A stretch of DNA of 64,000 nt from Pseudogymnoascus verrucosus (lineage: Eukaryota), in NCBI GenBank assembly GCA_001662655.1, contig KV460216.1. One strand, 5' to 3'. Made by a program: the position numbers and the translations under genes. Below, one piece after another: positions 1 through 19,041 of the stretch (the stretch's first letter is position 1; each line of letters opens with the position of its first letter). The notes below the pieces were generated by a model. That model saw only the letters and a program-made list of their open reading frames with translations, made no database searches and was not told the DNA's origin.

Positions 1-307
1 AAACAGAAAGTCCAAGAGCAAGTTCTTCATACGTTCAAATAGAAGCAAGCCTCAGAAGTAAGTTCTTCATAAAGATCAGCTGTGAGTTCAGCTGCGAATT
101 CAACAGCATGTTATTTCAAGGCGTGAATAGAATGTACACCAAGACCTCACTCTCTATCATCTCATCTCATTTAAAATCCCACATCCCACATCTCATATCC
201 ATAATCCATATCCCTCTCACCCACAACTCGCTGCAGAGGATACAAGCACCTCCCCCCTTCTCAATCCCACCTGCCGCGTTGTCAACCATCCAGTATCCAA
301 CAGCCAG

Positions 308-352
308 CCAGCACTCATCCAGCACTCGTCCAGCACTCATCCAGCACTCATC
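308..352. repeat. 11-nt tandem repeat (CCAGCACTCAT x4)
   Basis: Four consecutive units ccagcactcat/ccagcactcgt read directly. Confidence 0.85.
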
Positions 353-1185
353 AAGCCTCCTCCATCACCCGGCCCATCAGTCAGCAAGCAAGCAAGCAAC
401 AGCTCCGATCATATCAGATCAACACATTACACCTCAGATCAGACTAAAACAAGAACGTAAGTCAGCACGAACTGACACCTAGAACGGCAAACCCCAAAGC
501 CAATGACGACATACCGCCGTTCTCGTCACGGGTCTCGGGCCGAGAGCGAGTGAGTGTCTCGGGGGAGATAGGACGGGATGGAAGGTGAGCGGATTTACGT
601 TTGCGGCCTTGGTGGTATAGTATAGTTTGGAAAGGGGATGAGGTAAGTGGGAGGTGAGAGGAGGGCGGAGGATGGGAGGTGGGAGTTGAGGGAATTGCGA
701 GTAAAAATAAAACCCCAAGATCTCAGGGTTCTTCAGTTGTTGACAGATAGGACCAGCAAAGCAGACTTCATATTCACCATCAAATCCAATACAATTCACA
801 CCCCAAAGATCGAAAGGTGGTTAAAAAGATATTAAGAAATACCATTCATCTATATCCCCCCAACCCCTCTAAATATTCCCCCCAGTAATACAGAAACCCC
901 GCCCATCCACTTGCACACGCACACACACAATGGTATGATGTTGCCTCTCTCGTGCTTCTACCCCTTCCGAAAATCAGATCAGGTCCAATTTATCGGTTTT
1001 TCTCCCTTCCATCCGCGTAATTACCTCCTCCACCCTTCTTCCCCTTCTTTCGTCCCCGTTCAACTCACAAAGTTCACCTGAGACGCGCTGATGAGGCACT
1101 CCTGAAAGCGCAACCCGAACGCGCACTCAAGATCACCCATCCACTGACTTTCTCACCAAGCAGTCCAACACTAACAGACCGCTCC

Positions 1186-1951
1186 TTACAACAGCATAGC
1201 CGCAACAGCCATAACAGCCGCCGCCGCACCGCTGCCTCCCATCCTGCTAGCCGCACCACTCGCATTCGGCGCCGGGGTCTGGGTGAACGCGCCCGTTGGC
1301 TCCTGCTGTGGAGCTCCGCTGCTGGTGCCGGCGGCGGCGCCGGTGGTGGTGGCAACGGCGGAGGTGGCAGCGGCGGATGTGGCAGCGGCGGAGGTGGCGG
1401 CAGAGGTAGGGGGGAAGGAGGAACCGCCGAACGATCCCTCGTCGGCGGAGGAGGGCGCGGTGACGAGGGTGGTGGGGGTTGCGGCACCGCCTGCTGCTTG
1501 GGTGGTGACTGCGCCGCCGGCTGCGGCGGAGGAGGAGCCGGAGCCAGAGCCGACTACTTTGCAGAGCTCGCCGGTTAGGGAGAGGACCTCTGTGGGTGTG
1601 TTAGTGATTATTATTTGCATTGAGTTTTGTGATGGATGTGAGAAATGGATAGGTGTCTTGGCAGTGAAATTGAAATTGGATATGAGAAATCCAGGACAAA
1701 AAGAAAAACGTACTAATAGCATCAGCAGCCTGGCACTTGGTGGTGACACAAGGAGTAGCCGAAGTCTGGATAGCAGACATCTTGCCGCACTGGCACGCAT
1801 AGTCGGTGATGGCGCAGTTCTGTCCCGCGGATGCGGTGGCGATGCAGGTCAGCGCGCACGAGGGGATCTGGGACACGATGCTCGCGACGTCCTGGGCGGC
1901 GACGGAGGTTGCTGCTGCGACGGCAGCGATGAGGGCGAGTGAGAAGCGCAT
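1186..1951 (-). CDS. GPI-anchored CFEM-domain cell-surface protein (~213 aa; exons 1951-1714, 1589-1186)
   Basis: Signal peptide MRFSLALIAAVAAATSVAAQ; 8-Cys CFEM pattern IPSCALTC..C.ITDYACQC..PC...C..ELC restored across a GT..CTAAC..CAG intron; Ser/Thr/Ala-rich stalk; C-terminal omega site (NASGA) plus hydrophobic tail. Confidence 0.92.
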
Positions 1952-3727
1952 GGTGAAGTTTTTTTTGAGGTGAGAAGAATTTGACTTGGCTTTTGGCTTT
2001 GACGGTGAGTTGATGATCTGTTTGAGATGATCGATTGATTGATTTTTTGTCTGCCTGAGCGAGCGTGGTGGAGTGGAAGAAGGAGGGAAGGAAGAGATGG
2101 AGGGGAGGAAGGGGAATATGAACAGGGTGGGTGGGGGGGGGAGGATGGGGTAGTGTTGTTGAGGCGTCACATGTCATCAGCCAGCTTTGTTAGGATGATG
2201 GATGGGAGTGAAGAGCCTAACCATGGCAGGTGCGGGGGGGAGGATGGGCGGGAGACGAGCAGAAAGCAGAAAGCAGATTGAGGGAAGGGACATTTTCGAG
2301 GGACATTTTAGATCCCGGGGGGGGGGAGGAGGAGAATAGAGAGGAATGGGCCAATGGAGATGGGGGGATTGGGTAGATTGGCTGAATGGGGGATGGTGTC
2401 AACGGGGAAATAGTGGGAAGGGAAGTTCAATAATGGGGAAGTAATCTGGAAAGTGGAGGGGGAAATGTTTGTTTTGGGTAGAGGGGAGGGATTATCGTTA
2501 TTCGACGTTTATTGTGAGGAGCGTGAGGAGCGTGGGTGGTACCATGAGTGAGTACCACACGGGAAGGACTGGGAGAGGCGTAGATTGGGGTTGTTCGGGG
2601 TGTACTAGGCCAGGATGGGGTAGTGGGTGTGTTAGTGTGGTGGTAGTTTTGTACTATTCTGGTAGAAGATAGTAGGAGATGCAATTAGAGTAGTCTAGCT
2701 GGGGGAGAGAGAGTAGTCTAGCTGGGAGTAGACTGGAGCAGAGCAGTCAATAGTGTGGGCGCGGAGACAGGGAAAAAGTTGGATTTTGGGTGGAGGTGGG
2801 TGGGTGGTGGTGTAATGAGTGATGAGTGATGAGGAAGGGTGGAGAGGTGGGGAGATGGGGAGGGATTGGAGTGTATGGGGGTTGGGTAGGTATGGGGCCA
2901 AGGAAATGATGGAGAGAGAAAGTGAGCATGGAGATTGGAGAGAGATTAGAGGGAGTCTGGAGCCAAAGTCTGGAGTTGTCTGGAGTGAGGATGGGGAGGG
3001 GGAGGAGGAGGGGGAGATTAGAGAGAGAGGGTATTGTGGAGGATGGATGCACAGTCTGCACAGTCTGGTGTCCATAGACTTTTATTTATCAGCCATACAC
3101 ACACTCTGTTTAGCCAACACTCAGTCTTATCCACCATCTTCTTCTCTCCATCAGCCATACACTCAGCTATACCCACTTCAGTGTCTGCTTCATTACTACA
3201 TTTGTCTAGTCTTGCGATGAGTCTATACGTACTGCACACACGGCTGACTGACACTGACAGTGACATCTATTGACAGTCCTGTCTCCTCTCCTCTGCATTC
3301 TCTGCCGCGTATCCTCTTCTCTCTTCTCTCTCCTCTGCATTCTCTGCCGTCTACTCTACCGCATATCCTGTGTCTATCATCTCTACCATCTCTGCATACG
3401 TACATACATACCCAGTCTCTCCCTCGGACGACAACCACGTCCCCTCTTACTCAGTAGCCTCGGCACGGCAGGGTCTCTGTCTCTCTGTCTGTTTCTCTCT
3501 GTCTTACAATCCCCTCTCATCCATACCACGTCCGTAATGTCTTACCTGTTCTCTATCCTGCATTGTCTTACCTGTCTATCTTACCTGTCCTACCTTCCTA
3601 CCTCTCTGTCTCACCTGCATTTGTTCTCGTTCACTTCTTTCCTTCCATCTCCGGCCTCACTCTTCTGCTCTTCCCTGCTGTCTCACTCGTCATCGCCACC
3701 ATGCCATGATGCCATGATGCAGATGCA

Positions 3728-4578
3728 GCCAAGCAAGCAATCGACCTCCAAGTCAAGCAAGAATTGCCGTACTGCAGGCAGTCCAGTTTGTGCAGTAGTA
3801 AGTGGGACCATCGTCGACAGGGACAGGCTGGCTATCTGTGGTGCAGCTATCTCATTGCCAAGTATATCAGCTGTAAGCAGAGTACGTATACTTGCTGTAC
3901 AGCTGGGCGTGGAGTTAGAGTCATCGACACAGGCATCGTCGCCAAGAATCGCCATCGCTCACAGCAACAGCATCATCATCAACAGGCATGTTGCCAAGGA
4001 GTGCAGTGAACATCCCCCCATCCCCCTCCCTAGCATCACATCACAGCGTTACCAGCAGGCACCTTGCCAAGGCCTGAAGTGTAGTAAACATCCCATCCCC
4101 ATCCCCAGCATCACCAGCCAAGTATCACCAGCCAAGTACCCTTCCCCCCCCCCGATGTCACCCTCCGCCCGTTTTCCCACATAATCGGCATCGAGGGCAT
4201 CGAGGGTACATCCCAGAGCATCCCAGCCACCCCTCTACCCTCGCACCACCACACGGCACTCACCGCATACACGAACAAGCAATGCACACATGCCTGCACG
4301 CACACATGCATCCATGCACACACCGGATTTAATACCGATCGGCGCTACCTTAGTCCTGCAGCGGAGGGATTTTACCCATCTCTGTCCAGGGGGAATGGCA
4401 GGGGGGGTGGGTGAGGTGGGTGAGGTAGATGAGGTGGCAACCCTGCGAGGGGAACCGAGGTGACTGGCCACAGCTTTTAGAGGTTAGCGCGCATGGGGAC
4501 CATGCTGATCGTGGTGTGGATGCGGATGGTGCTAGGATGTTGCTGGGTAAGGGTCGTGCGACGATCTTGGCTCTTGGC
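3728..4578. promoter_or_regulatory. Cluster of PacC/Rim101 consensus sites (GCCAAG) upstream of the CFEM gene
   Basis: GCCAAG at 3728, 3857, 3941, 3993, 4066, 4117, 4131 (+) and CTTGGC at 4566, 4573; GCCARG is the established PacC consensus. Confidence 0.65.
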
Positions 4579-6721
4579 GGAGAGGGGAGATGGGGGTGCT
4601 AGGCTGGGTTTGGGTTAGGGGGGGTTTAGTCTGGGATTGAGGAAGGGGGTAGTACTGCGTTCGCTGATAGATAGTGGCGTTTGGGGGACTTGCTGTGGCC
4701 CGTAGACGAGCCTGCTTACCTGACTGACCTAGCTGATCCCGGAGAGAGGGAGGAGGGAGGGGTTGACGTCAGGTACAGTACGTCCAGTACGCCACGCCTA
4801 GGAAGGTACGGACGGGTCGGCAACGTTGGCATGCATGTGCGCGCGCGGGGGTGTTCTGTTTGTGTGTGTGTGTGTGCTGGTATTGCTGCTGGCTGCTGCC
4901 GTTGTTGGTGTGGGTGAGTGTGTGGGTGTGTGGGTGGTAAAGAGAAGGGGAAATTTCTAGTGCAGAACTGCGGAGTCCCTTTAATTTCGCAGGAGATTTC
5001 CAGGACGGGGTGCGCATTGCGATTGCGGGAGGGATATCGTCCGTCTGGGTCTGTCTGGATGTTCTAGCTGTTCTGGCCAGACTACTAGATTACTGCTGTC
5101 TATCAACTAGGTGGTGGGTGGATTGGTGGTGGGTGTGAGAAATTTCTTCATTCCCTTCTTTTCCTATCTCGTTTGGTAGACGGCGACGGCGACGGCGAGG
5201 TGCTGCTGCGAACGAACTCGACTGACTGGTACGTACCCCCACTCGATGGATTCGGTGGACCATCCCGTCTACAGTCAGTGGATATGAGTAAGTAACTACC
5301 ACAGCTACCTATCTGTCACATGACTCGCCCCTCGCAAGCCTATCCTCTCTTGTCAAAAACTTTCTTTGCTCGGGAACCGCACATGGCGATGAACGGGTCG
5401 ACTCGCCTCACTCACCTACCCACGTACCTTCGGGAGCGCGTTCCAAGCTTTCGGGTTCGGGTTCGGTGATGATGATGGTGGTTGGTGACGCGAGGGGAGG
5501 GAAGCAGTGACGACTTGTTCGCTTAGAAGTGTGGGTGAGGTGAGTGAGGTGAGGGGAAGCTGTTTATGTGGAGGGCTCAGTGAGTTAGTCGGTCGGTCGG
5601 TCGGTGGTGGATCGGAGTCGGGGAGTTCGGGGATGGTGGATTGGTACAGCACAACACCAGCACCAGCATCAGCTAGACAGACAAACAAAAAGACGGGAAG
5701 CAGGATTTACCACTCCGAACCCCAAGCTTGTGATTGGCCAAGACGACGGGTGGTAGGCATTAGGTCCTTACTGCACGTCAGCGAGGCGTCGCGGCTCGGT
5801 CGGCGGCTGGGGCTGGGCATTCTCACATGCTTATACTTGTGCTTTGGGGATGGAGCTCGGATGGGGAAGACGAGGGGGATTGCGGGATTGCGGGATTGCG
5901 GAGTTTGTGGGTGAGGTGGATTGAGGATGGATTATGGGGACAGTGAGAAATGGAGGTGCGGGGTAAGTGATGCATGGTTCGTATCCTGTCTGTCTGGAGT
6001 GAGTGGGTGAGACTCTGGGGAACGGGAGGATTTGGGAGGAGGAGGATTGGTGGTGGTTTGGAATTGAGTGGTGGTGAGTGGTGGGGTAGGTTGCATGTGT
6101 AAAAAAAAGCTTTCAAGGTTGAAAGTTTGAGAAAACTGAGAATTGACTGAGTGTGAGTATAGGGGTGGGCAAGCAGATTAATCTTGGCAGTTTTCAAATC
6201 TGATACTATTTCAAAATACCCAATATGAACACGGTAGAGTAATTTTTATATGATAGTATTTCAACCGCTAAACGAATGTTCTGTATGTATGCACGTCCAA
6301 GAATGATATCTATATACACATCCAAAATATCTCCAATTCACCCCCGCCCAAAATATCTTCCCCTCCCCTTCAAAAAAAAAACACCACTTCCGATGCCAGA
6401 AAATGCCAATCAACCCGTATATGTGAAAAACAAACGCCCTACTCCATCCAGATCCAAACCAGACTAGACAAGACCATCTATCTATCCCCCTTCCCCTCCG
6501 CCATCCCCAGACTCCGCGTGTAAAAAAAGATTCAACCCATCCATCCATCCCAATCTCATCTAAGTATCCCCTCTCTGGACATAGTCACAGCCAGCTGGCA
6601 TCTCGCAGAAATGGCAGGTTCCCAGGGCTCTCTCGCTCATGAACGAGGCAGCTAGACACAGTCCCGCATGCCTCCTCTCTCCACCACCCACTCTCACTCC
6701 ATCTCTTCCCCTTCACCCCCC

Positions 6722-7912
6722 CTACGACGCCGCAGCCGCCAGCGCCGCCGCCGCCTTCTGCGCATCCCCCACCTCCTTAATCGCCACCATCTTCGCCTGC
6801 TCCTCTATCGACAACGCCTTAAACGCCGCCGTATTCGCGTCCCACAGCTGAATGCACTGGATATCCCAATTGCACCTCTCCACCTCCCCATACACCGGGT
6901 GGCTGTAGCGCGGGTGCACGGTCGGCCAGCCGGAGGCGTGGTACCGGTGCTTCACGAGCGCGGTGCGGGCGTTGTGGTTCCCGGAGTCGGAGTGGCCTTG
7001 TCCTGCGGCGAAGGCTTCGACGGTGAGGACGAGGGCGCCGCCGATGAGTTTGCTTTCGCGCATGGCGTGGAAGGAGTCCCATGTTACTGCGTGTCCTGCG
7101 CCTGCGGAGATCTCAGCTAGAATCGCCGAAGTAAAAGCGGACGGGCCGGTGCCGGAGATGACCTCGTCGAAGTCGAGTTGAAGTTGGGAGATTGGCACGC
7201 CCTGCGTTTCGGAGAGTCCCTGGAGCCACAACAAGATGCCGTCGACGAGGCGGAGCATGACGGGCAGGCCGGGCTTGGCCATGAAAGTCCATTGGCAGAA
7301 GGACTGGGATTTTGGGCCGAGGATGGCGTGGTCCTTGAACTCGGGCTGGTCGATCTCAACGCCGATTACCATGTCGATGTCGCCCTCTTTGTAGCGGTCG
7401 GGGATGAAGGAGTCGATGGGCTTGAGCGCCTCGACGTCGATGTCGGTGTACAACCCGCCGTCCACGTACATGACCAGATACCGCAATAAATCAGCCTTGA
7501 TGATCTTGGCGGTGAGCGAGCGGTAGGTCTCGACGATGTCCGGGCGGTTGAGGCCCGCTGGCCCGTAGTGCGACTCAACGTACATGAGGTCGTTGCTGTC
7601 TGTCAGCACCTCGTATCTGTACCCTGGGTTCTTCGACGTCCAGGTGCGCGCGCACGAAGAGTCGCGCTCCTCGAAGCCGAGCGGGTCGACCTTCCACGTC
7701 TGCCAGATCTTGCGGGGGAACTTGGTGGCGAGGGCGAGGGGCTGCTGGTGGGAGAAGCCACGCTTTGCGACGCGCAGGGGGGCGCCGAGGGAGTCGGCGT
7801 GCGAGATGATGAAGATGATGAGGATGCAGGCGAGGTAGACGGGGAGGGCGCGCTGGATCTGGCGCGGGAGTCGGCCGGTGAAGGCGGTGGGGGTTTGGAG
7901 TTTTTCAATCAT
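6722..7912 (-). CDS. Glycosyltransferase family 32 (Och1-like alpha-1,6-mannosyltransferase family), type II membrane, ~396 aa
   Basis: N-terminal TM (LPVYLACILIIFIIS), FPRKIWQTWK, KADLLRYLVMYVDGGLYTDIDVE (DXD), FCQWTF, TGPSAFT; single exon from ATG 7912. Confidence 0.9.
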   Translation of the reverse strand: MIEKLQTPTAFTGRLPRQIQRALPVYLACILIIFIISHADSLGAPLRVAKRGFSHQQPLALATKFPRKIWQTWKVDPLGFEERDSSCARTWTSKNPGYRYEVLTDSNDLMYVESHYGPAGLNRPDIVETYRSLTAKIIKADLLRYLVMYVDGGLYTDIDVEALKPIDSFIPDRYKEGDIDMVIGVEIDQPEFKDHAILGPKSQSFCQWTFMAKPGLPVMLRLVDGILLWLQGLSETQGVPISQLQLDFDEVISGTGPSAFTSAILAEISAGAGHAVTWDSFHAMRESKLIGGALVLTVEAFAAGQGHSDSGNHNARTALVKHRYHASGWPTVHPRYSHPVYGEVERCNWDIQCIQLWDANTAAFKALSIEEQAKMVAIKEVGDAQKAAAALAAAAS

Positions 7913-8846
7913 TGCTGTTGTTGCTTTGGTGGTTGTGATTGTGATTGTGGTGGTGCTCCTGCTGCTTTTGTCGGTGTCGTCTGTCTGGAGATTGGATTGT
8001 TCAGAAGAAGAGACGAAGACGAAGACAAAGAGGAAGAGAGCAGCAGTTGGGGATGAGCAGGAAAAAGTTTGTCCCTTTTCGATCAGCACGGGAAGGGAAG
8101 GCAGGGAAGGGGAGAAGAAGGGAAGAAGGGGAAGAAAGGGCAGGCCTTAAAGTTGGCGGGTGGGGGTGGGTAAGTGAGGTGGGTGTGAGGAATTGGAGAA
8201 GCTGGGGACGCTAAAAGGATGGGTATTCTGGGGACGCTATTAGGGGCGAACTTATGATGACTATGCTCGGAAGAGTAATTGAGAGGGGGATGGAGGGGGA
8301 TGGAGGGGGATGGGAGGTATGGGAGGTATGTGAGAGTGGGAGGGGGGTACAGGAGGGTGTATGAGATATAGGAGGGAGGGGAAGTATTGAATTGGGTGGG
8401 AATCGGAGTGAGTGAGTGAGCATGGGAGAGAGTTTGTATGAGGGAGGAGAGTGGAAAAGAGAGTGAAGAGAGAGAAGGCGGTACATGGCGGAGCGGGTGT
8501 GGTTTGCGGGAAGATGGAAGTACTGTATCCCTTCGTTTACTGATTTCGGAGTATCAGTTGAAAGTATCAGTGGAGAGAATCTCTCTGTCTGCGTGAGTGG
8601 AGACTGGACTGACAAGGATTCCGGGCACTCAGGGACTTTGATGAACATACCCATACTCCCAAGTTAGGCTAAGAGTACCCGAAGCGGATAGGGTAGCACT
8701 TGCCGTTGCTCTCGCCAAAACGTTGCCGTACTCTGTGAAACAATCGGCAGTCTAGAGTAGAGTAGAGTAGAGTAAACTGAGTACTGAGCAGAGCAGAGCA
8801 AGTGTAGTCAAGTCATGCTCATCTGGCACCTTTTCCAAGCTTTTCT

Positions 8847-9531
8847 GCCAAGTGATACCGCCCATCCCTGTTGCTGGTGGTGGATAGGTGGTGGATAGGT
8901 GGTGCATGCGTCCTTGGTATGTGAATCCCCGCACGGTGGTCAAGAGTTGGCCAAGATTGTCAGGGATTATCCATGATTGTCCCACCGAGGTGCCTGTTCT
9001 GTTCTGGGGGTGTACGTATCTTCCCATACCTGCCGCTAAAATGCCCGCTAAAAAGTGCCTTCTTCTTCGTTCTGCGCTAAACAAGCCCTACGCTTACCCT
9101 GTTAGTCCCACGCTAAGCGAACAACGGGTGCGTCGGTAGATAATCTTGGCGATTTAGTTCTACGTTAGTAGAACTGCTTGGCGGTTTGGTATGACGGTGA
9201 ACTATGCTGTCCCACATGGGAACCAGGGGTTAGTGCGAGGAACGCCAATCCTAAAGCCATTGTACCCACACAAACTGCTCGGTTACCGGGGTGGCTGGTA
9301 GCTGGCTGGTGAGGAAGAGTGGGGGTTTCGAGGAAAGGACCTGCCTCGGAATTTTACATTTGTTTTCACATGTCAGTCAGTCTCAGTCAACCACAGCAGC
9401 TAACAATACTGTACCCACAACGCCACAACGGCTCTTTCCTTCTTCTTTCCTTGATGACTGTGATGAATACTGGGATAATTGGCATCCTGGATACTGGGAT
9501 TCGGGGATCCTCAAACACGCCACCAGCCAGG
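8847..9531. promoter_or_regulatory. PacC-type GCCARG sites in the divergent GT32 / acyltransferase promoter
   Basis: GCCAAG 8847, 8950; CTTGGC 9145, 9177; GCCAGG 9526. Confidence 0.5.
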
Positions 9532-10801
9532 TTATACCACTCACTCACTCACCCACTCACTTATTCTCACACTCTCACACTCCCACACGCTCAATTGGCG
9601 TCAATTGCGCCAATTACACGTAATAATGCCCACCACAGACGATGACTGTATGATGCGTATAGTATGATGCTCTCAGCAGAGTACTGCTGTAGTACTACTG
9701 TAGTACTACAGTTCTCTACTGAGAGCATCATGAGTACAGCAGTAGTACTCTGTTATCCGACACCTCTACTACCTCTACTACCCTTACTACGGCAACACCA
9801 GCCACATCCGTCACAACTGCCCTCCGCAAGCACTTGCGCTTGCACACTTCCAAGTACTACTGTACTGTAAACACACTTACAGTAAACACACACACAAACT
9901 CCATTCGGCATTTTCACATTCCCTTTCTCCATATCTCCAGTCTCTCCATCTCCACCTCCACCCTCATCCACCTCCTCCTCCTCCATCCTCTACCCTGCCT
10001 TACCACTCTACTTGCTACTCTACCCCATACTCCCCAGACTCTCACTATCCCACTTCGCAACTTCACTCCTGTTTCTCCCCGCACTCCTCTTCATTCCATG
10101 CTAACCCTACACACTTACCAAACTATGCCTATGCTCCTGCCCTGTCGCAACTTACTTACCATCCTGCCCTGCCATAACTCACCATCCCGCCACTCGGACA
10201 TGCCGCCCGTGATTTGACTCGCCGATCTATACTCCCCACGTACCGTACCTGCACGCTCTTCCGGCATGTGAACATGTGAAGATGAAACAGCGCGATAGCA
10301 CCAAGGACCGCCTGTACTCGCCTGCACTTGCCTGCACTTGCCTGCTCTTGCCGGCACTCTCCTCCACTCTCCACTCTCCCATGCACTGTGGAAAATACTC
10401 TCCACACTCTTTCTGCTCTACCCTACCTGCTCCACCTACTCTACCCACTCCACCTACTCGCTCGACTCTACCTTTGTACTCTACCCATCCTACAACAGCT
10501 CCCCCCATCCGCTGACTAATCATTGCCTCCACCATCTCTCTCAATCCTCATTATTTACTCCATCTCTTGGCTGATCCTGATCGTCCCTGCATCCCCTCCG
10601 CTTCCCTCTCCCGTAACCACCTTCCTGGCGCCGGCGTCAGTCAGTTTGTCTGATATCTCTATAAAAAAAAGCCACCGCGACAGCATCAATTGCCCATCAA
10701 CTGCTCAAAGGGCCTCACGACCTCATCCCCCTCCAGCCGTGAGCCGGCATCACCCCCACCTCTCCTCCCTTCTCCCCTCCTCACCGAAACACCCTCAAAA
10801 A

Positions 10802-12265
10802 ATGTCCCTCCAACACGACGGCCTCCTGGGCCAGAAATGGGTCCCCGCCGACCCCTCCAGCAAGCTCTCCCCCCTCGCGCGCATCGCCAAAAACTGGGCC
10901 GAATACCTGCGCCCATCCTTCCTCACGCGCGCCGGTGGGAGCAAGACCAAGACACAGCTCGGGCGGACGGCATACCTCGACGGGCTGCGCGGATTCGCGG
11001 CGTTTCTCGTGTACTGGCAGCATCACCAGCTGTGGGCGCACGAGGCGCTGGGGGCGGATAAGATTCTCGAGAATGGGTTTGGGTATGAGAAGCAGTATTA
11101 CTTCGCCTGTTTGCCGTTTATACGTACGTTCTTCACGGGGGGGCACTTCGCTGTCACGGTATTCTTCGTCATCTCGGGATACGTTCTGTCTGCGAAACCG
11201 CTCGCGTTGATCCAGGGCGGTGAGTATGGCAAGCTGGGGGATAACCTGGCCTCTGCGCTATTCCGACGTTGGATGCGCCTCTACATCCCTATCATCGTCA
11301 CGACCTTCATCTACATGACATCCTGGCACGCGCTGGGCATCTGGACCGACTCAGAACACCAGGGCAGCTACGGCGACGAGCTGATAAAGTGGTACCGCGA
11401 CCTCAAGAACTTCACCTTCATATTCGACGGCAGCGGGGACCCGTTCTTCCACTACAACGGCCACGTGTGGTCCATTCCCGTGGAATTCAAGGGCTCGATC
11501 ATCATCTACACCTGCCTCCTCGCCTTCTCGCGGTGCCGCAAGAACGCGCGCCTGTGGTGCGAGATCGGCATGATATACTACTGCATGTACATCGTTGACG
11601 GATCTTTCTTCTCCATGTTCCTCGGGGGAATGCTGCTGTGCGACCTGGACCTGCTCGCGGCCAAGGACGAGCTCCCGCGCTTCTTCGCCCTCTTCGAGCC
11701 CTGGAAGGAACTCATCTTCTTCAACCTCTTCATTATTAGTCTGTACCTCGGCGGCGTCCCGTCGCATAGCGGGGAGGTCAGCGTCCTCCGCGAGACGGGT
11801 GGGTGGTATTACCTCTCCTTCCTCAAGCCACAGGCTGTGTTTAACTATAAGTGGTTCTACCTCTTCTTTGCGTCTGTGTCGATGGTGGCGTCTGTGCCGC
11901 ACATGCCGTGGCTGAAGACGTTTTTCGAGATGCGCTTCAACTTATACCTCGGGCGCATCTCATACGCCTTCTATCTTATTCACGGCCCTGTCATGTGGAC
12001 GCTGGGCGATAGGTTGTACGTCGCCGTCGGCTGGTATAGGGATTCGCATCTGAAGGGGGTACCCGGGTGGGTGAACCTGCTCCCGTTGTCGAAAGCTGGG
12101 CCGTTCTTCGGGGCTGAGTTTAGTTTTTTGGTGCCGCATATTATTATCCTCCCTGTCACGCTGTGGTTGGCGGAGGTGGTGACGAAGACGGTGGATAAGC
12201 CGACGGTGAGGTTTGTGCAGTGGGCGTATTCGAGGACGTTGGCGCCGGCGGTTGGGAAGTTATGA
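10802..12265 (+). CDS. Acyltransferase family 3 (OafA/OatA-like multi-TM sugar O-acyltransferase), ~487 aa
   Basis: YLDGLRGFAAFLV, GHFAVTVFFVISGYVL, FRRWMRL, WSIPVEFKG, YLGRISYAFYLIHG; many hydrophobic helices; start at ATG 10802 (MSLQHD). Confidence 0.9.
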   Translation: MSLQHDGLLGQKWVPADPSSKLSPLARIAKNWAEYLRPSFLTRAGGSKTKTQLGRTAYLDGLRGFAAFLVYWQHHQLWAHEALGADKILENGFGYEKQYYFACLPFIRTFFTGGHFAVTVFFVISGYVLSAKPLALIQGGEYGKLGDNLASALFRRWMRLYIPIIVTTFIYMTSWHALGIWTDSEHQGSYGDELIKWYRDLKNFTFIFDGSGDPFFHYNGHVWSIPVEFKGSIIIYTCLLAFSRCRKNARLWCEIGMIYYCMYIVDGSFFSMFLGGMLLCDLDLLAAKDELPRFFALFEPWKELIFFNLFIISLYLGGVPSHSGEVSVLRETGGWYYLSFLKPQAVFNYKWFYLFFASVSMVASVPHMPWLKTFFEMRFNLYLGRISYAFYLIHGPVMWTLGDRLYVAVGWYRDSHLKGVPGWVNLLPLSKAGPFFGAEFSFLVPHIIILPVTLWLAEVVTKTVDKPTVRFVQWAYSRTLAPAVGKL

Positions 12266-12358
12266 TGATGTTTATGATGGGTTGGTTGTGGTTGGCGTTG
12301 GCGGGCGTTGGCATTGGATTGGCATTGGATTTGAATTGGGTGGTGTATTTTGGGACTG

Positions 12359-12665
12359 TATAGAATTGGAATTGGAATTGGGGGATATTTGTAGAATTGT
12401 GATATTGGGGATGTATATAGAATTGAGATATCGGAAGATCTACAGAATCATAACATCACAGAATCTGTAGAATTGAACAAGAGAATCTATTGAATTGAAA
12501 CATCGCAGAATCTTCAGATTTGAAACCCAGCAAAATCTTCAGAATTGAACATGAGAATCTACAGAATTGAACAGCAGAATCTATAGAATTGAACTGAACC
12601 CTCGCAAAATCTACAGAATCGAACATGAGAATCTACAGAATCAAAACCTCCCAGAATCTGCACCT
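12359..12665. repeat. Degenerate minisatellite, about 10 units of 21-30 nt with core AATCTACAGAATTGAAC
   Basis: Repeated gaatct(a/g/t)(c/t)agaattgaac units downstream of the acyltransferase stop. Confidence 0.8.
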
Positions 12666-13279
12666 TCAAAACCATAAAATGTCTCGAATTAAACACCACA
12701 CACACAATTGAAAAACTATCACCAAAATCCCTCAATCTCAATCTCTCACACCCCACCAAAATCATCACTCAATCCCACACCCCCAATAAAACAAGCCGCG
12801 ATCACCGCACGCAAATCTCCACGAATATTGGATCGCAAATCTCCCCCTCCCCGCCCCAAATCCCAAAATGACGCACGCAGCACGCATCACAAGCCAAGGA
12901 AATCCCCCCCCGTCCCGGCCTAACGCCCCCCCGCCTCACTACTCCCTGAATCGTACCGTGCGCTGATCGTGGTGTAGGTACCAGGCCGGGGTCTAGTAGT
13001 GCTAGTGTTAGTGTTAGTGCTAAAACCGGCGGTGGGTGGGCGGTGGTGCTCCCCACATTTTGGTGTGTGGTGTACCCCAATAATTATTTCCCCAGCAGTG
13101 AGCGGCGATGGGGGGGGGGGGGGGGAGGGAGCACATGCGCTGCTGCGGTGGGGTGGGGGGAGACATAAACTCTCATTCATTTATTCATTCATATCATTAA
13201 TCCTTTTGCTCGCCAAGCATCTTGATCTGAGATCTGATCTTGGCTACGACCTCAATCAAGCCAGAAAATAGGGAAAGGT

Positions 13280-13321
13280 NNNNNNNNNNNNNNNNNNNNN
13301 NNNNNNNNNNNNNNNNNNNNN
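13280..13321. other. Assembly gap (N run) next to a (ATAC)n microsatellite
   Basis: N run in sequence. Confidence 1.
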
Positions 13322-13469
13322 ATACATACATACATACATACAGTACTTTCCAAGCAATTAGTCTCGCATCTCCAGCTCCAGATCAAGCTCCATCGAGCAT
13401 CTTTTAAACCCCATTTGCGCCTACGACCACGACACCACCACCACCACCCACTACACACACCACAGCACA

Positions 13470-15299
13470 ATGCTCACCCGCCGCACAACCCTCCTCACGG
13501 CCCTCCTCGTCGCCAGCACCTTCGTCCTCTTCCTGAACGTTGATTTTTTGTCAAAATACGCGGGGTCACCACTTGCTGTGCCTGTTGCGCCTGGGGGGTT
13601 CCCCGCGGGGGCGCCTGGGGGGGAGGGACTGGGAGATGGGGGATGGCCGGCGGCGCCGGAGAGGCCGCAGGTATTTGGTGATGGGGGGTTGGCTGTTGTT
13701 AATGATAAGGATGGTGGGTTGGGGGGGTTGAATGGGGATGGCGGTCTTGGTGGTTTGGGAGGGGATAAGGATGCGGGTTTTGGGGGGGACAATAAGAACG
13801 CTGGTCTGGACGGATTTGGGGGAAACAAGGACAGTGGTCTTGACGGCCTGGGGGGAGATAATAAGAACGCTGGTCTGGACGGCCTCGGTGGCCTCGGTGG
13901 CCTAGATGGCAACAACGAGAGCAAAGAAGCTGGCAACACCGCGCCAATTGACTTCCCACCCTCAAACACCGATAGCACCACCATCGCCGTCCCTCCCGCC
14001 ATCCTCCCAGAAACCACCACCACCAACACCAACCCCAATACCAACCCAGCACCCACCAACGCCGACGGCTCTCCAAAAAACACCTACTTCGACCAAGCCT
14101 TCTCGGCCTCCCCCCCCACGCCCTACGACTTCCCCGCCCTCACAGCGCAATGCGCACGCACGCACTGGCGCACCGACGACGTCTACCTCCAATGCGGCGG
14201 CATGGCCGCTGGCCTCACCTCCATCATGTCTCAAGTCAAAGTGTGCTTAAAAATGGCCTTCGAAGCCGGTACCGGGCTCGTCCTCCCCAGCATGCCGCTG
14301 CGCGACTCGGAGCACCTCGAGCAATTCAACCTCATGAACCAGGATGCGTATATGACGTACGACCAGTGGTTCGATGTTGCGCACCTCATGGACTCCGTCA
14401 AGCGCGTGTGTCCGCAGATGAAGATCGTGCACCCGGCGCAGCTTGATACGGCGGAGTACCCCGTGAAGAATAAGTGGCTTATCAAGCTCGAGGATGCGAA
14501 GGGGTATAGGCAGTTCCAGAGCTATTTCTGGACTGGGCGGCCGTTCGCGACGTTCTTCGATGAGCAGTATACTAAACTCACGCAGCTGGATAAGTTGAAT
14601 CCGCATAACAAGGCTGCTGTGGAGCAGGGGGCGCCGGCGAAGAAGGGGATGACTGTCGTGAAGATGTCGAGTAACTTCCTCCTTTTCCGCATTACCGACG
14701 ACCCGACGGGACAGGATCTGAAACTCTGGAACGACCTGGGCCATCTGATCCGCTTCACGCAACCGACGCGCGATCTCGTCTCCGCGCTCCTCGGCCACGT
14801 ATCACGCCCGTTCTACGGCGTGCATTTCCGCGTCGAGAAGGACACGATCTGGTCCTCGCTCGAGAACCAGCTCAAGGTCGACCTTGACGCGCTGGATAAG
14901 GCGTGGGGGATGTTTGGCACCCCCGGCGGGGAGAAGCCGCTCGTCTACCTTGCGTGCGGGGACCAGGAGCAGGTTGCTAAGTTTGTGGAGGCGGGTAAGG
15001 CGCGCGGGTGGGAGGTGACGCATAAATGGACGCTTGCTGGGGGGGATAAGACGACGCTTGAGAAGATTGATGCGCTGCCGTTTGATTTTCAGGGGGCGGT
15101 GGATATGGGGTTTATGGTTAAGAGTGAGTTCTTCTTGGGGATTACGGGGAGTGCGTTTTCGAGCACGATTGGGAATGCGAGGGATGTTACGGGGAGGTAT
15201 AGGGGGAGTTCGTTGTTGTTGGGGAAGGGTGGGGATGGGGGGGCGAGGACGCATTTGTTTAATGATGGGGATGCGAGTCTTTATGCTTGTTGTTTGTGA
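13470..15299 (+). CDS. O-fucosyltransferase-like (GT-B, O-FucT family-like) type II membrane glycosyltransferase, 609 aa
   Basis: N-terminal signal anchor; Gly/Asp/Asn-rich repetitive stem; GLVLPSM; FYGVHFRVEKD (GxHxRxExD); VYLACG; AVDMGFMVKSEFFLGITGSAFS (D...s..F.G...S.FS). Confidence 0.75.
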   Translation: MLTRRTTLLTALLVASTFVLFLNVDFLSKYAGSPLAVPVAPGGFPAGAPGGEGLGDGGWPAAPERPQVFGDGGLAVVNDKDGGLGGLNGDGGLGGLGGDKDAGFGGDNKNAGLDGFGGNKDSGLDGLGGDNKNAGLDGLGGLGGLDGNNESKEAGNTAPIDFPPSNTDSTTIAVPPAILPETTTTNTNPNTNPAPTNADGSPKNTYFDQAFSASPPTPYDFPALTAQCARTHWRTDDVYLQCGGMAAGLTSIMSQVKVCLKMAFEAGTGLVLPSMPLRDSEHLEQFNLMNQDAYMTYDQWFDVAHLMDSVKRVCPQMKIVHPAQLDTAEYPVKNKWLIKLEDAKGYRQFQSYFWTGRPFATFFDEQYTKLTQLDKLNPHNKAAVEQGAPAKKGMTVVKMSSNFLLFRITDDPTGQDLKLWNDLGHLIRFTQPTRDLVSALLGHVSRPFYGVHFRVEKDTIWSSLENQLKVDLDALDKAWGMFGTPGGEKPLVYLACGDQEQVAKFVEAGKARGWEVTHKWTLAGGDKTTLEKIDALPFDFQGAVDMGFMVKSEFFLGITGSAFSSTIGNARDVTGRYRGSSLLLGKGGDGGARTHLFNDGDASLYACCL

Positions 15300-16737
15300 G
15301 GTGGGGGGTGAATGTGGTTTGTGAGATTTTGGGTTGGAGTTTTGGGAGTTTTAAACGAAAGGCTGGAGGCTTGAGTTTTGGGGGTGGGTGGGGGTTATTT
15401 TTTTGCGTAAAGCAGGGTGTATATATTATAAATTTAGATTCTATATAGATGAGGTGCAAGACATTGAGGATGTTATGAGTTTAAATTTCTTCGTTGTGAT
15501 TATAAATCTGTTTTGTAAACCTCAATATCGTATTTCCATTCATATTCCACAAAAACAAACCACCAGTTTCCGAACAATCCACAAGTTCAAAATCTTCCAT
15601 TTCCGTAATATATAATCTATAGCATTCCATCATCCTATTTCTCTATTGTGAACGCCCAAGACCGACCTGGACCTCCATGGAGACCACCCATGCCGCTATG
15701 TCATAAAATGATCATGGTGCGTGATGTCTGGCTTCGGATCTGTCATCTAGTTGGTGAAGGTCTGGGAATTATGCACTGCCGTCACTAGTTTTGAGTTCTG
15801 ATGCATCATTTGAGGTGTTTTGTAGATTGATCTGTAGAACAAGATGAATAAAGCGTGTCCTGCTGTGTCGTTGCTGTGAAAACTCCCCATGCACGTTAAA
15901 GCCACAATCCCCATCCACGTCAACGCTCAACACAGTGGCAGTGAAAGAGTTATCCTGCCCTCAGAACCACAACCGTCAAAACCACACAAAAGAAACCCCC
16001 AAGAACCGTCAAAACAAACAGAGACTACAATCACAATTCACAAGAACCGACATTTCAATTTCAAATTTTCCATTTCCTATTCTAGAGTACGACACAGTGT
16101 GGAGGCTTGATTAACACACCATGCCCCCCTGATCGGAAACCAGCGAGCAAACACGCCATCACCAGAGTCTGAAAACCATCCCAAACACCCTCCCATGATA
16201 TTTGCCCACTAACACCCAGTACCAGGCGCCATCACGAAATGAAGAAGTTGAAAGTCCGATACCAGCCCATCCGAAACACCACGCCAGGCACTCATGCCGA
16301 CAAACAAACAAACGAAACAAAAGAAGAACAATACCCATAGGCGGGCAAGTCTTCATCCAGACCCACGCGCATCCCAAAGGAGGAGAAGCACGGGAAAAGA
16401 AGGATCTGGATACGAAGTGAACATAAGATATATTGGCAGACCGGCAGCTCGGAGCTGCACCCGCATCGCGTCGAACCCGGGTAGTAAGGGGGTTTGAAAG
16501 GAGACACGGGGGCCTGAAAAAAAAAGTAACAATCGAAGACATACGGAAGAACACCGACGCTAGATACGTGAACTCGAAGTAATGAGTTAGGCATGTGGAG
16601 GTCGGATCAAAGGACCACACACGAGGAACACTATCTTTGCCATGGACATGCTTTGTTGGAATCTGAACAGTCGAGAAAATACCGGAGTGAAACAAGATGC
16701 GGCACGAATAGAGTGAGTGCGTGGTCGAGCTGGCAGC

Positions 16738-19041
16738 TTAGTTGTTGCTGCTGCTACCCGTGGATCTAGCCTGCTGCTGCGAAATCATAAGCGCCTTGCG
16801 ACGACGCTCGTATTCCTCAATGTCTGCAGCCATGTAGTTATAGGTGATGGGTCCGGGCTCTGGTGAGATTCGGAGCTCCTCGCGCAGACGATGGTAATGC
16901 TCCAACTCCTCGGGCTGGATAGGCTTGACAACAGCCTTGCCAGGGCGTTTTGGATCCATGTCATGCAAGTCGTACGGGGATGACTTCTTCTTCTTGTTCT
17001 TGCGCGAACGGGAACCTGGGGTTGGGGCACCTTCAACATATGGTGGGATGTTGTTGTGAGGGATCGTGATTGGGAGACCAAAAGCATGATTCCATGGGTT
17101 GATGAAGATCTGTTTGAAGACACGTCTGCAGTGGGCGCGCAGATAATTGCATGCATCAGTTGAGATGCCGATGTAGATGCAGGCATTGAAGAAACCCTGA
17201 AGAGGCAGAAGAACAGCCTCCGCGATGTTAAGCTCGTACGACACCAAGGCTGGATTAACTAATGTCGCAATGCGGTTGGCGGTGGCCGGGACCTGGTGGT
17301 GATTAGTCTTCGTGAATAAATGGGGGGAGGTCAAGATGGTGAGGTGTGAAGGCGGGGAGAAATTGTTCGGAGGAAAGAAATTAGAGGGAAGGGAGGAAGA
17401 CATACCCAAGTAACGATCATAGCGGTGAAAAACATCAGGGCACACTTGAGATAGACCCAGGCGGCGCGGTCGGCACTGGACACCTCCTTCTTCTCCTTCT
17501 TGGCCTTGACCTTGGCAGTGGATTTACCTTTCTTGTATTCCTCGCGCTCGACGGAGTTAGCTGCGTCCGAAGTGACGTTGATATCGGTGGTGACCGCAAT
17601 ATGGCCCTCCTCTAAGACGGAAGGACTGCCAACAATGGAGGCGGCCATAGAAGCTTGGTTCCTGGAGGCTTGGGCGGTTAATTCATTGAAGCGGGCTCGG
17701 TTTCGGAAGACAATTCTGCCCACAAGGATGTAAATAGTCATCGTGGAAAGAAGGACAACCCTAGGAAAAGTGTTAGTAAGAGGTGGAAACATCGAGAATG
17801 AGAATGGCTGAAATGTGAGGGGAATCAATGTGGGAATAAAACGAAATCTCAGTCAGGGGTTGAAGACCAACAGAATATTATGTGCTCAAGTGACATGGCC
17901 GTATAATGAAAAAATAAGTAACATCAACGATTAAATTATCAAAGTAGGATAGGCCCTATCCACAAGTGTATTAAGGTTCGGAAATGTCCAGATCGGGAAG
18001 GGAGGAATAGATCAGGGGATGTATAAGTTCGCCAACACAAAATCCGCAATGGTGGGAAAATTCCAAACAGCAAAAAGTGCGCAGTAGGGTCAAAGTCGCC
18101 TGTGAATAGATCAAAGGCGAGATTGAACCAAAGCAAGAATAGATCAAGGCGAGAGTGAACAAAAGCAAGAATAGATCAAAGGCGAGAGTAAACCAAACCA
18201 AGTTGTGTATCGAAGCCAGAAGCACGTTGAAATGGTGAAGAAAAAGAAAAACAAGACTAAAAGAAATGAGAAATTGTGTCCAAAACTCACCAGACGGGGC
18301 CATAGAAGGTGGCAATACGGAGAAAGTTCCATTTGACGGTCACCCAGCACCAGAGCTAAAAAGCTATTAGCCACATAAACGAAGGTGACATGTTTGCTTT
18401 GAGAAGAGTATAGATCGAGAAGGAAAGTATGGAAGGGGGGGGTGGGGGAAACTTACTGTAGCATTCCCAAAAACACGACCACGCTCCTCAGTTTGAAGCA
18501 GCACAAATACGATTGATGGAATAGCCGGAACTCCATAGTTGAAGACGAGGTAATATTTCTCGAGAGCCAGGAATTCCGTTGGACCATACTGATAGAAGAA
18601 CGTGAGGAACACATTCAAAGCCATAGAAAACATCCAGAGAGCGTCAGCAGGCATGAACCTAGAAGCAGTGTTAATACAGATGCACGGATTTGAGGTCCGA
18701 TCTGAGTAGAAGTTTATATTGAAGTAAACTGGGAAGGAGCAATAGAAATGGTAGTAAAGATGAGGTACTCACATTTGGATAATGAAGGCTTGAAACTGGC
18801 AGAGCGATGAATTTTGACCAGTCAAGATGCTAGAGCGTGAGATTAGAGTGGCTAAGTTCGTAACGAGGTTGCCAAAGGTAGCGAAGAAGACCAATCTGTT
18901 GATCGGCTTGCGGAAGATCTTCATCGAAGAAAACGTTACAATGACGAAAAAACAGCCTAGAATAGAGAACACCGAAGAGATGCGCTCAGCGAGCTGAATA
19001 TTAGCGAGCTCTTGCTCGGTGAAGTAAAGTTTCTTGGCCAT
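16738..19041 (-). CDS. cAMP-receptor-like (CRL / Dicty_CAR family) GPCR; exons 19041-18773, 18658-18457, 18355-18291, 17760-17406, 17292-16738
   Basis: ERISSVFSILGC..FRKPINRLVFFA, CQFQAFIIQMFMPADALW, GNATLWCWV..LRIATFYGPVW, AAWVYLKCALMFF..TWVPATANR, LPLQGFFNACIY; all junctions GT-AG and in frame. Confidence 0.9.
18104..18202. repeat. About 32-nt tandem repeat x3 inside GPCR intron 3
   Basis: gaatagatcaa(a)ggcgaga(t/g)t(g/a)aac..aa.caa repeated three times. Confidence 0.8.

What the first reader, a model, noticed from the sequence alone, without database searches (positions are those of the whole stretch)
1186..15299. Candidate pH-regulated cell-surface glycan module: CFEM-GPI + GT32 + acyltransferase-3 + O-FucT-like
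Seen: three adjacent intronless genes for secretory-pathway glycan enzymes (GT32 divergent from an AT3 O-acyltransferase, then an O-FucT-like GT-B enzyme), next to a GPI-anchored CFEM protein with a Ser/Thr-rich stalk. The intergenic regions are long (4.8, 2.9 and 1.2 kb, against mostly under 1 kb in the housekeeping half) and every promoter carries GCCARG sites. Known: AT3 proteins O-acetylate or acylate surface polysaccharides, and GT32 and O-FucT-like enzymes build glycans. Inference: a clustered pathway making an acylated extracellular or wall glycan, or decorating the CFEM protein. Secondary-metabolite cluster tools would miss it because it has no PKS/NRPS core.
Basis: partly seen in the sequence, partly recalled or inferred. 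Interest (0 to 1): 0.8.

Follow-up and report, generated by a model that had tools for sequence, protein, structure and literature searches.

The report
Conserved fungal sugar-acylation gene cluster
A sugar-transferring enzyme gene and a membrane acyltransferase gene have stayed head-to-head across many filamentous fungi, often with a third, exchangeable sugar transferase, which points to an undescribed pathway that builds an acylated cell-surface glycan.

Summary
The genes are there as described. The core is a head-to-head pair: an Och1-like GT32 (not OCH1 itself) and an intact AT3 O-acyltransferase. The pair was adjacent in 11 of 11 named genomes where both tags were seen, spanning four fungal classes. 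It very probably equals Aspergillus och2 plus its neighbour Afu6g14030, which moved as a block between chromosomes. The third gene has a POFUT-like GT-B fold. It is linked in four Leotiomycete lineages and unlinked in three genera. In Paecilomyces a β-mannosyltransferase-like protein takes its place. It is probably not a fucosyltransferase: no GDP-fucose pathway was found in this genome, but a UDP-rhamnose pathway was. Best reading (0.68): a Golgi module that makes an O-acylated mannose-containing glycan with a lineage-specific extra sugar. The acceptor is unknown. Linkage of the CFEM gene was not shown to be conserved. GCCAAG is truly enriched here (21 sites against 3–5 expected), mostly upstream of CFEM. 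The presumed A. fumigatus orthologues are absent from a ΔpacC list, so pH control of the cluster is unproven. Seven literature searches found no description of the cluster. Interest 0.62.

The parts
1186..1951 (-). CFEM protein, 213 aa spliced (exons 1951-1714 and 1589-1186; intron 1713-1590). Signal peptide, 8 Cys, Asp at the Csa2 haem-ligand position, Ser/Thr/Ala stalk, hydrophobic GPI-type tail. A neighbour; probably not a core member.
   Evidence: aligns to Csa2 (4y7s), E 0.0014, with the Asp kept; GPI signal by inspection
1952..6721 (.). 4.77-kb spacer (CFEM upstream region and GT32 3' side) with 13 GCCAAG sites, 9 of them in 3728-4578
   Evidence: no Rfam hit
6722..7912 (-). Och1-like GT32 of the och2 type, type II membrane protein (TM about aa 19-37), D157-I-D159 motif
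7913..10801 (.). 2.89-kb divergent spacer (likely shared promoter) with 5 GCCAAG and 2 GCCAGG sites, and a hairpin with 32-bp arms at 9664-9731
   Evidence: head-to-head layout kept in 5 metagenome loci
10802..12265 (+). Stand-alone AT3 membrane O-acyltransferase with R63-X10-H74, R156xxR159, W223/E228 and S387xxxY391
   Evidence: motifs from passages of PMC9833829
12266..13469 (.). 1.2-kb spacer with 3 GCCAAG sites, a degenerate 22-nt repeat (12438-12673) and a 42-N gap (13280-13321)
13470..15299 (+). POFUT-like GT-B glycosyltransferase: TM about aa 8-26, Gly/Asp/Thr-rich stem of about 175 aa, catalytic domain aa 200-609 with invariant HFRxE and GSAxS. Donor probably not GDP-fucose.

Best explanation
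A selected gene cluster for a Golgi-type glycan modification. The GT32 and the AT3 are expressed from a shared divergent promoter. The GT32 (DxD, metal-dependent, Och1 fold) adds an alpha-linked sugar, most likely mannose from GDP-Man, to a lumenal acceptor that OCH1 proper does not serve. The AT3 takes acyl-CoA (most likely acetyl-CoA) on the cytosolic side and passes the acyl group through its Arg/His channel to a hydroxyl on that glycan. A third slot, downstream of AT3 on the same strand, holds a lineage-specific glycosyltransferase that adds another sugar. In many Leotiomycetes it is a POFUT-like GT-B enzyme, with UDP-rhamnose the most likely donor. In Paecilomyces, and probably Aspergillus, it is a beta-mannosyltransferase-like propeller protein. 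The product is an O-acylated mannose-containing surface glycan, more likely on wall glycoproteins or heteromannan than on a glycolipid. SHOWN: genes, folds, intact AT3 and DxD motifs, conserved linkage, donor pathways found or not found. INFERRED: localisation, donors, acceptor, co-function, and identity with Aspergillus och2.
For: GT32 and AT3 carry consecutive tags in 11 of 11 named genomes where both were seen, across Leotio-, Eurotio-, Lecanoro- and Dothideomycetes. 27 contig lengths are shared between the two top-120 lists, against a control mean of 0.1. The pair is head-to-head in 5 of 7 informative metagenome loci. The GT32 tree fits vertical descent and lies far from this genome's OCH1 (109 vs 214 bits to yeast Och1). 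Aspergillus och2, an acyltransferase and a hypothetical protein are consecutive in three species while their flanks differ. The triplet is linked in Pseudogymnoascus, Sclerotiniaceae, Mollisiaceae and Stipitochalara. A Paecilomyces gene model joins AT3 to a BMT-like domain. The third protein folds like POFUT2/POFUT1/FUT8/NodZ, Z 16-18. No GMD or fucose pyrophosphorylase was found, but a UDP-Glc 4,6-dehydratase, an epimerase/reductase and a transporter-like gene were. Plant POFUT-like GT106 enzymes use UDP-Rha (PMC13010939). Paralogues in this genome are not clustered with each other.
Against: No activity or product data. The third gene is unlinked in Coleophoma, Scytalidium and Xylogone, and sits on other contigs in several fragmented assemblies. 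Two metagenome AT3 loci lack the GT32 within 8-10 kb, and neither locus with 10 kb downstream holds the O-FucT-like gene. One pair sits beside a non-reducing PKS. The A. fumigatus quadruple och mutant is reported without phenotype (PMC11237753). Co-expression rests on three conditions at low FPKM, and the third A. fumigatus gene is nearly silent. This genome has several other POFUT-like genes, so UDP-rhamnose may serve those instead. The genome may be incomplete.
Confidence: 0.68

Rival explanations
1. The same module, but the acceptor is a glycosphingolipid (GIPC) head group, as in the A. fumigatus Af3c cluster. The result would be an O-acylated GIPC that alkaline lipid clean-up destroys. This is a sub-case of the best explanation's glycan module.
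For: The sister paralogue OchC (Och1-3) is a clustered GIPC mannosyltransferase (passages of PMC9769593 and PMC11218662). Mutants without a growth phenotype would fit.
Against: The cluster has no GntA-, deacetylase- or transporter-like gene. AfOch3 is reported closer to MitA than to the other Och proteins (PMC3012087), whereas this GT32 is clearly Och1-like.
Confidence: 0.2
2. One reading: a four-gene, PacC-controlled module in which the enzymes decorate the adjacent CFEM-GPI protein.
For: GCCAAG is enriched in all three spacers. In A. fumigatus a CFEM gene (Afu6g14090, PMC5049851) lies five tags from och2 on the same side, and a GPI-protein gene (Afu6g14010) flanks the other end.
Against: No CFEM in 9 metagenome loci, though only L038 has more than 3 kb beyond the GT32. 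The Aspergillus block has different flanks in each species. Afu6g14020/30/40 are not in the ΔpacC lists, while 14010, 14050 and 14090 are. Five orthologous spacers hold 0-2 GCCAAG, about background. The genome has 22 CFEM-domain matches on 13 contigs.
Confidence: 0.1
3. The pair tailors a secreted small molecule or glycolipid (glycosylation plus acylation) made by unlinked or nearby secondary-metabolite genes.
For: In L038 the pair abuts a non-reducing PKS and an SDR. In A. fumigatus it lies just beyond the Afu6g13930 PKS cluster. Some bacterial stand-alone AT3 proteins (CmmA, MdmB, Asm19) use acetyl-CoA; that they tailor small molecules is recalled.
Against: The neighbours differ in every lineage. 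Both GTs have type II anchors that point to the secretory lumen. The curated boundary of the A. fumigatus cluster ends at Afu6g14000.
Confidence: 0.1
4. Linkage is a passive relic: a bidirectional promoter holds two functionally unrelated genes together.
For: Divergent pairs can persist for regulatory reasons (general knowledge). The third gene is easily lost from the block.
Against: The block moved as a unit. Two unrelated families in the third slot are both glycosyltransferase-like. All members are glycan-acting secretory enzymes.
Confidence: 0.12

Closest known systems
A. fumigatus Af3c glycosphingolipid cluster (OchC/Och1-3, GntA, deacetylase, ClpC)
   Same: A core-less fungal glycan gene cluster built around an Och-family GT32.
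   Different: Different GT32 paralogue and different partners. Here an AT3 acyltransferase is the fixed partner. The primary paper was not held; I saw it only through citing passages.
Aspergillus och2 (Afu6g14040 / An05g01750 / AO090003001503) with Afu6g14030 and Afu6g14020
   Same: Very probably the same pair: GT32 next to 'acyltransferase, putative' and a third gene, consecutive in three species. Identity is inferred from names, layout and 61%-identical Aspergillus AT3 homologues, not from an alignment to the Afu proteins.
   Different: Function is stated to be unclear. The third gene is probably BMT-like, not O-FucT-like; this is inferred from Paecilomyces only.
Och1 alpha-1,6-mannosyltransferase (PDB 9n3s)
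   Same: Fold (E 7.5e-16), DxD motif, type II anchor.
   Different: This genome has a separate true OCH1 (214 vs 109 bits; 33% identical to the window protein).
Bacterial stand-alone AT3 O-acyltransferases (Oac, WecH, IcaC; OafA/B domain)
   Same: R-X10-H, RxxR, W/E and SxxxY motifs kept. Acting beside glycan synthesis genes is recalled knowledge.
   Different: Eukaryotic, no SGNH domain, acceptor unknown.
POFUT1/2 and plant GT106 (RRT/FRB1 rhamnosyltransferases)
   Same: GT-B fold, Z 16-18 to POFUT2/FUT8/POFUT1/NodZ; conserved Arg in HFRxE.
   Different: Only 12-16% identity in the structural alignments. No GDP-fucose pathway was found here, and the donor is untested.

Membership tests
GT32 / Och1-like | PF04488 domain with DxD motif and Och1 GT-A fold | tested here: met
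   E 3e-15; D157 and D159 invariant in 82 rows; model matches 9n3s
OCH1 orthologue | Best match to yeast Och1 in the genome | tested here: not met
   Paralogue on C30 scores 214 bits, the window protein 109
GT32 / Och1-like | GDP-Man alpha-1,6-mannosyltransferase activity | not testable with these tools
   needs an enzyme assay
Aspergillus och2 orthologue group | Direct sequence orthology to Afu6g14040 | tested here: inconclusive
   No A. fumigatus sequence was at hand. Eurotiales homologues nest in the same clade and the gene layout matches.
AT3 acyltransferases | PF01757 with R-X10-H, RxxR, W/E and SxxxY motifs | tested here: met
   H74, R156, R159, W223, E228 invariant; R63, S387, Y391 in at least 90% of 84 rows
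AT3 acyltransferases | Acyl-CoA-dependent O-acylation of a glycan | not testable with these tools
   needs an assay
POFUT-like GT-B superfamily | POFUT/FUT8/NodZ fold | tested here: met
   pLDDT 92; Z 18.0, rmsd 4.3, 292 aligned to POFUT2; the next unrelated family is at Z 8.1
Protein O-fucosyltransferase (function) | GDP-fucose supply in the organism | tested here: not met
   Best GMD match is 55 bits against a cut-off of 415 and is the RmlB-like gene; no fucose pyrophosphorylase. The genome may be incomplete.
Rhamnosyltransferase (GT106-like function) | UDP-rhamnose synthesis and import present | tested here: met
   Dehydratase on C9, epimerase/reductase on C55 (158 bits to 4qqr), TPT-like transporter beside the dehydratase, below the Pfam cut-off. 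Necessary, not sufficient.
Af3c glycosphingolipid cluster | GntA, deacetylase, ClpC and transporter genes with OchC | tested here: not met
   None among the ORFs in window 1-20000 or the long ORFs of the 40 kb to its left
PacC regulon | Excess of GCCARG sites (consensus recalled) | tested here: met
   GCCAAG 21 vs 3.3-4.5 expected, top hexamer; GCCARG significant only upstream of CFEM
PacC regulon | Expression depends on PacC or pH | tested here: inconclusive
   No RNA for this organism. The presumed A. fumigatus orthologues are not listed in one in-host ΔpacC dataset.
Haem-binding CFEM (Csa2/Rbt5 type) | Eight Cys and axial Asp | tested here: met
   haem binding itself not testable

The most novel reading that the evidence does not exclude
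Filamentous ascomycetes share an ancient, modular cassette for O-acylating a surface glycan: a fixed GT32/AT3 pair plus a swappable third glycosyltransferase that sets a lineage-specific epitope (rhamnose in Leotiomycetes such as Botrytis, Sclerotinia and Pseudogymnoascus; beta-mannose-like in Eurotiales). It would be a eukaryotic counterpart of bacterial O-antigen acylation and variation loci, and its product has been missed because alkali-based wall and lipid preparations remove the ester. The fungal O-FucT-like family would then include the missing Golgi rhamnosyltransferases.
Probability: 0.3. Interest if true: 0.85.

Novelty: new variant of a known kind. Interest (0 to 1): 0.62.

Why it matters
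It gives a testable job to three orphan enzyme types: Aspergillus Och2 (function stated as unclear), fungal AT3 acyltransferases, and fungal 'O-fucosyltransferases' in a genome with no detectable GDP-fucose pathway. O-acyl groups on surface glycans change how hosts and hydrolases recognise them (general knowledge from bacterial polysaccharides and the Cryptococcus capsule). The cluster is present in Botrytis, Sclerotinia, Pseudogymnoascus destructans and Exophiala, and very probably in Aspergillus. Standard alkali extraction would hide such esters, which may explain why och mutants look normal. It has no PKS or NRPS core, so tools that look for such cores would not report it (inference; no such tool was run).

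Tried and rejected
Complex prediction of AT3 with GT32: no answer (score 0.00, alignments not used); no evidence either way. Sequencing runs: no RNA holder listed; the one run laid was contigs of related strains and gave nothing on expression. The P. destructans expression table was cut before the relevant rows. The supplements of the AfOch1 paper could not be read. Two papers were not held, and one paper id was wrong. Rfam: no family in 1-18000. Sequence search of the O-FucT-like profile against PDB gave nothing significant; only the fold search did. The RmlD-like gene on C22, first taken for the rhamnose reductase, is MAT2B-like; the right gene is on C55. A second AT3 about 18 kb left of the window is a distant paralogue beside a GH20 gene, not part of the cluster. 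Horizontal transfer was considered; the trees give no sign of it, but the deep Leotiomycete branches are unresolved.
Full report
1. Observation. The window is G000:C11:62001-126000 of a 30.2-Mb fungal genome. The closest named homologues are from Pseudogymnoascus, at 83-99% identity. Pfam confirms a GT32 at 6722-7912(-), an AT3 at 10802-12265(+), an O-FucT-like protein at 13470-15299(+) just over the cut-off, and a CFEM domain at 1951-1186(-). The three enzymes are single ORFs that align to three distant homologues each with at most 15 gap columns. The CFEM gene has one intron, 1713-1590, and gives 213 aa with eight Cys and the Asp that aligns with Csa2. The spacers are 4770, 2889 and 1204 bp; the last spans a 42-N gap. 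P. destructans has consecutive tags on one 54,857-bp contig across that place, so the gap does not create the adjacency.

2. The motif. GCCARG (the PacC consensus, recalled) is near chance over the window: 94 against 82. Split by form, GCCAAG is enriched in each spacer (13 vs 2.4, 5 vs 1.7, 3 vs 0.54; 0, 5 and 5 of 300 shuffles) and GCCAGG is not. GCCAAG ranks first of 2080 hexamers under order-2 and order-3 models and seventh under order 1. Nine sites fall within 900 bp, 1.8-2.6 kb upstream of CFEM, where 272 background windows from 247 kb of this genome reach at most 3. Against a conserved PacC link: five orthologous divergent spacers hold 0, 2, 2, 2 and 1 GCCAAG in 1.6-2.2 kb, about background, with no shuffles run. 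In an in-host A. fumigatus ΔpacC dataset, Afu6g14020/30/40 are not listed, while the neighbours 14010, 14050 and 14090 and ochC (8G02040) are up (PMC4199764, supplement rows and passages). That is one condition, and array coverage is unknown.

3. Linkage of the core pair. Only the best 120 of 1186 GT32 hits and of 1398 AT3 hits were listed. In 11 of 11 named genomes where tags or accessions of both genes were seen, they are consecutive: P. destructans, Chlorociboria, a Mollisiaceae sp., Coleophoma cylindrospora (Leotiomycetes); Capronia epimyces, Rhinocladiella mackenziei, Exophiala xenobiotica, E. dermatitidis, Pyrenula (Eurotiomycetes); Diploschistes (Lecanoromycetes); Viridothelium (Dothideomycetes). 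Two more, Acephala and C. crateriformis, share a contig length. Among hits on contigs of 5 kb or more (88 and 85), 27 lengths coincide, against a mean of 0.10 when shifted by 1-50 bases. Of 9 metagenome AT3 loci, 7 have at least 2 kb upstream. Five of these show the GT32 head-to-head (L036, L038, L040, L043, L044; L040 and L043 may be one organism) and two do not (L037, L039). The GT32 tree (36 chosen rows) has a supported Eurotiomycete clade (100/96) and puts this genome's other GT32 on a very long branch. That paralogue is the true OCH1: 214 bits to yeast Och1, against 109 for the window protein. The other AT3, GT32 and O-FucT-like paralogues of this genome have no partner within about 10 kb.

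4. Aspergillus. Supplement rows list Afu6g14040 (och2, 'glycosyl transferase'), Afu6g14030 ('acyltransferase') and Afu6g14020 ('conserved hypothetical'), with orthologues An05g01750/60/70 and AO090003001503/02/01 (PMC3689640, PMC4869263). The listed A. fumigatus genes on the och2 side map to other regions (An08g, An03g, An06g; AO090103), and the A. oryzae block sits beside the ags1 orthologue, so the three genes moved as a unit. I had no A. fumigatus sequence. Identity with the window pair is inferred from the layout, the names and 61%-identical Aspergillus AT3 homologues that nest in the same clade. och2 and the acyltransferase rank hyphae > conidia > 1-h germlings in all three species (FPKM 0-6.7); this is weak support, from three conditions only. 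Passages state that och1-2 function is unclear (PMC9769593), that the quadruple och mutant has no phenotype (PMC11237753), and that it lacks the conidial mannan G3Man (PMC9964227).

5. The third slot. The best 120 of 232 O-FucT-like hits are, where named, Leotiomycetes and Sordariomycetes only. The gene lies within two tags of the pair in Pseudogymnoascus (3 assemblies), Botrytis (BCIN_09g05950 and 05970), Sclerotinia, Monilinia, Ciborinia, Mollisia, a Mollisiaceae sp. and Stipitochalara: four lineages. It is unlinked in Coleophoma (about 900 accessions away), Scytalidium and Xylogone. It is on other contigs in Lachnellula suecica and three fragmented Pseudogymnoascus assemblies, which I could not resolve. 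Neither metagenome locus with 10 kb downstream holds it. In Paecilomyces variotii No. 5 a 986-aa gene model joins the AT3 to a 500-aa part whose best named look-alike is beta-mannosyltransferase (PF12141, score 0.93; GH130-like propellers by structure). I read this as two adjacent genes merged by annotation. That part has no match in this genome. So two unrelated glycosyltransferase-like families occupy the same position.

6. Mechanism. GT32: TM at aa 19-37, invariant D157-I-D159, Och1 fold. AT3: R63-X10-H74, R156xxR159, W223/E228 and S387xxxY391 match the motifs described as essential in bacterial AT3 proteins (PMC9833829 passages). Third protein: TM at aa 8-26, a stem of variable length, and a confident model (pLDDT 92) matching POFUT2 (Z 18.0, rmsd 4.3, 292 aligned), FUT8, POFUT1 and NodZ. 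Its invariant Arg in HFRxE likely equals CePOFUT1 R240 and FRB1 R386; I did not check this residue by residue. No GDP-mannose dehydratase or fucose pyrophosphorylase was found in the genome. It has a UDP-glucose 4,6-dehydratase beside a transporter-like gene, and a 3,5-epimerase/4-reductase. Plant POFUT-like GT106 enzymes use UDP-rhamnose (PMC13010939 passages). Hence rhamnose is the best guess for the third sugar (about 0.45); other donors are open. The model: GT32 mannosylates a lumenal acceptor, AT3 esterifies the glycan from cytosolic acyl-CoA, and the third GT adds a lineage-specific sugar. Wall glycoprotein or heteromannan is the likelier acceptor; GIPC is the main alternative.

7. CFEM. 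It keeps the haem-ligand Asp and has the densest GCCAAG block, which fits a pH- or iron-responsive surface protein (inference; CFEM haem roles from passages of PMC7409268). No CFEM was found in the 9 metagenome loci, but only L038 is long enough to count. A. fumigatus has a CFEM gene five tags from och2 on the same side (PMC5049851 passage). Since the block has other neighbours in A. niger and A. oryzae, this may be chance, but it is not explained. Membership stays unproven.

8. What is known. The closest precedent is the A. fumigatus Af3c cluster with OchC, seen only through citing passages (AfOch3 is said to be closer to MitA, PMC3012087 passages). Seven searches of the held library found no description of this pair or trio. 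The only mention of a member tag in a main text with any biology was Bcin09g05950, up after antifungal peptide treatment (bioRxiv 10.1101/2025.11.05.686674, one passage). Subscription papers, and supplements I could not see (the bioRxiv one, the AfOch1 tables, the cut P. destructans table), may bear on this.

9. Verdict. A real, old, apparently undescribed glycan-modifying cluster: a fixed GT32/AT3 pair with a swappable third glycosyltransferase. It is a new variant of a known kind, the core-less fungal glycan clusters. The product is unknown but directly testable. Interest 0.62.

Noticed in passing
window 13280-13321: 42-N scaffold gap inside the AT3 to O-FucT-like spacer; the true spacer length is uncertain.
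   Followed up: partly
window 12438-12673: Degenerate tandem repeat of about 22 nt, 6 copies, just 3' of the AT3 gene.
   Followed up: no
window 9664-9731: Hairpin with 32-bp arms, 84% complementary, within the divergent GT32/AT3 spacer.
   Followed up: no
window 13545-14070: Gly/Asp-rich repetitive stem of the O-FucT-like protein; total length varies from 450 to 647 aa among Pseudogymnoascus homologues.
   Followed up: partly
L038 7185-19743: GT32/AT3 pair directly followed by a non-reducing PKS with thioesterase and a short-chain reductase in a metagenome contig.
   Followed up: partly
L062 2934-9236 (G000 C9): UDP-glucose 4,6-dehydratase divergent from a TPT-family transporter-like gene: a possible UDP-rhamnose supply pair.
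   Followed up: partly
G000 C24:17589-20537: One open frame of 1120 aa with eight tandem CFEM domains.
   Followed up: no
window 44912-47332: 806-aa frame with a fungal rhodopsin (Pth11-like) N-terminal part, an internal repeat of about 48 aa, and a transporter-like C-terminal part not matched by Pfam.
   Followed up: no
window 16738-17792: Spliced 7-TM receptor-like gene converging on the O-FucT-like gene; weak 7tm_1 match only.
   Followed up: no
L017 2330-6891 (G000 C11, about 18 kb left of the window): A distant AT3 paralogue next to a GH20 hexosaminidase gene.
   Followed up: partly
A. oryzae AO090003001500-1503 (PMC4869263 supplement): The three-gene block lies next to the ags1 alpha-1,3-glucan synthase orthologue in A. 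oryzae only.
   Followed up: no
P0053, P0101, P0219: Stipitochalara has two GT32 copies of this clade, and Coleophoma crateriformis a second AT3 on another contig.
   Followed up: no
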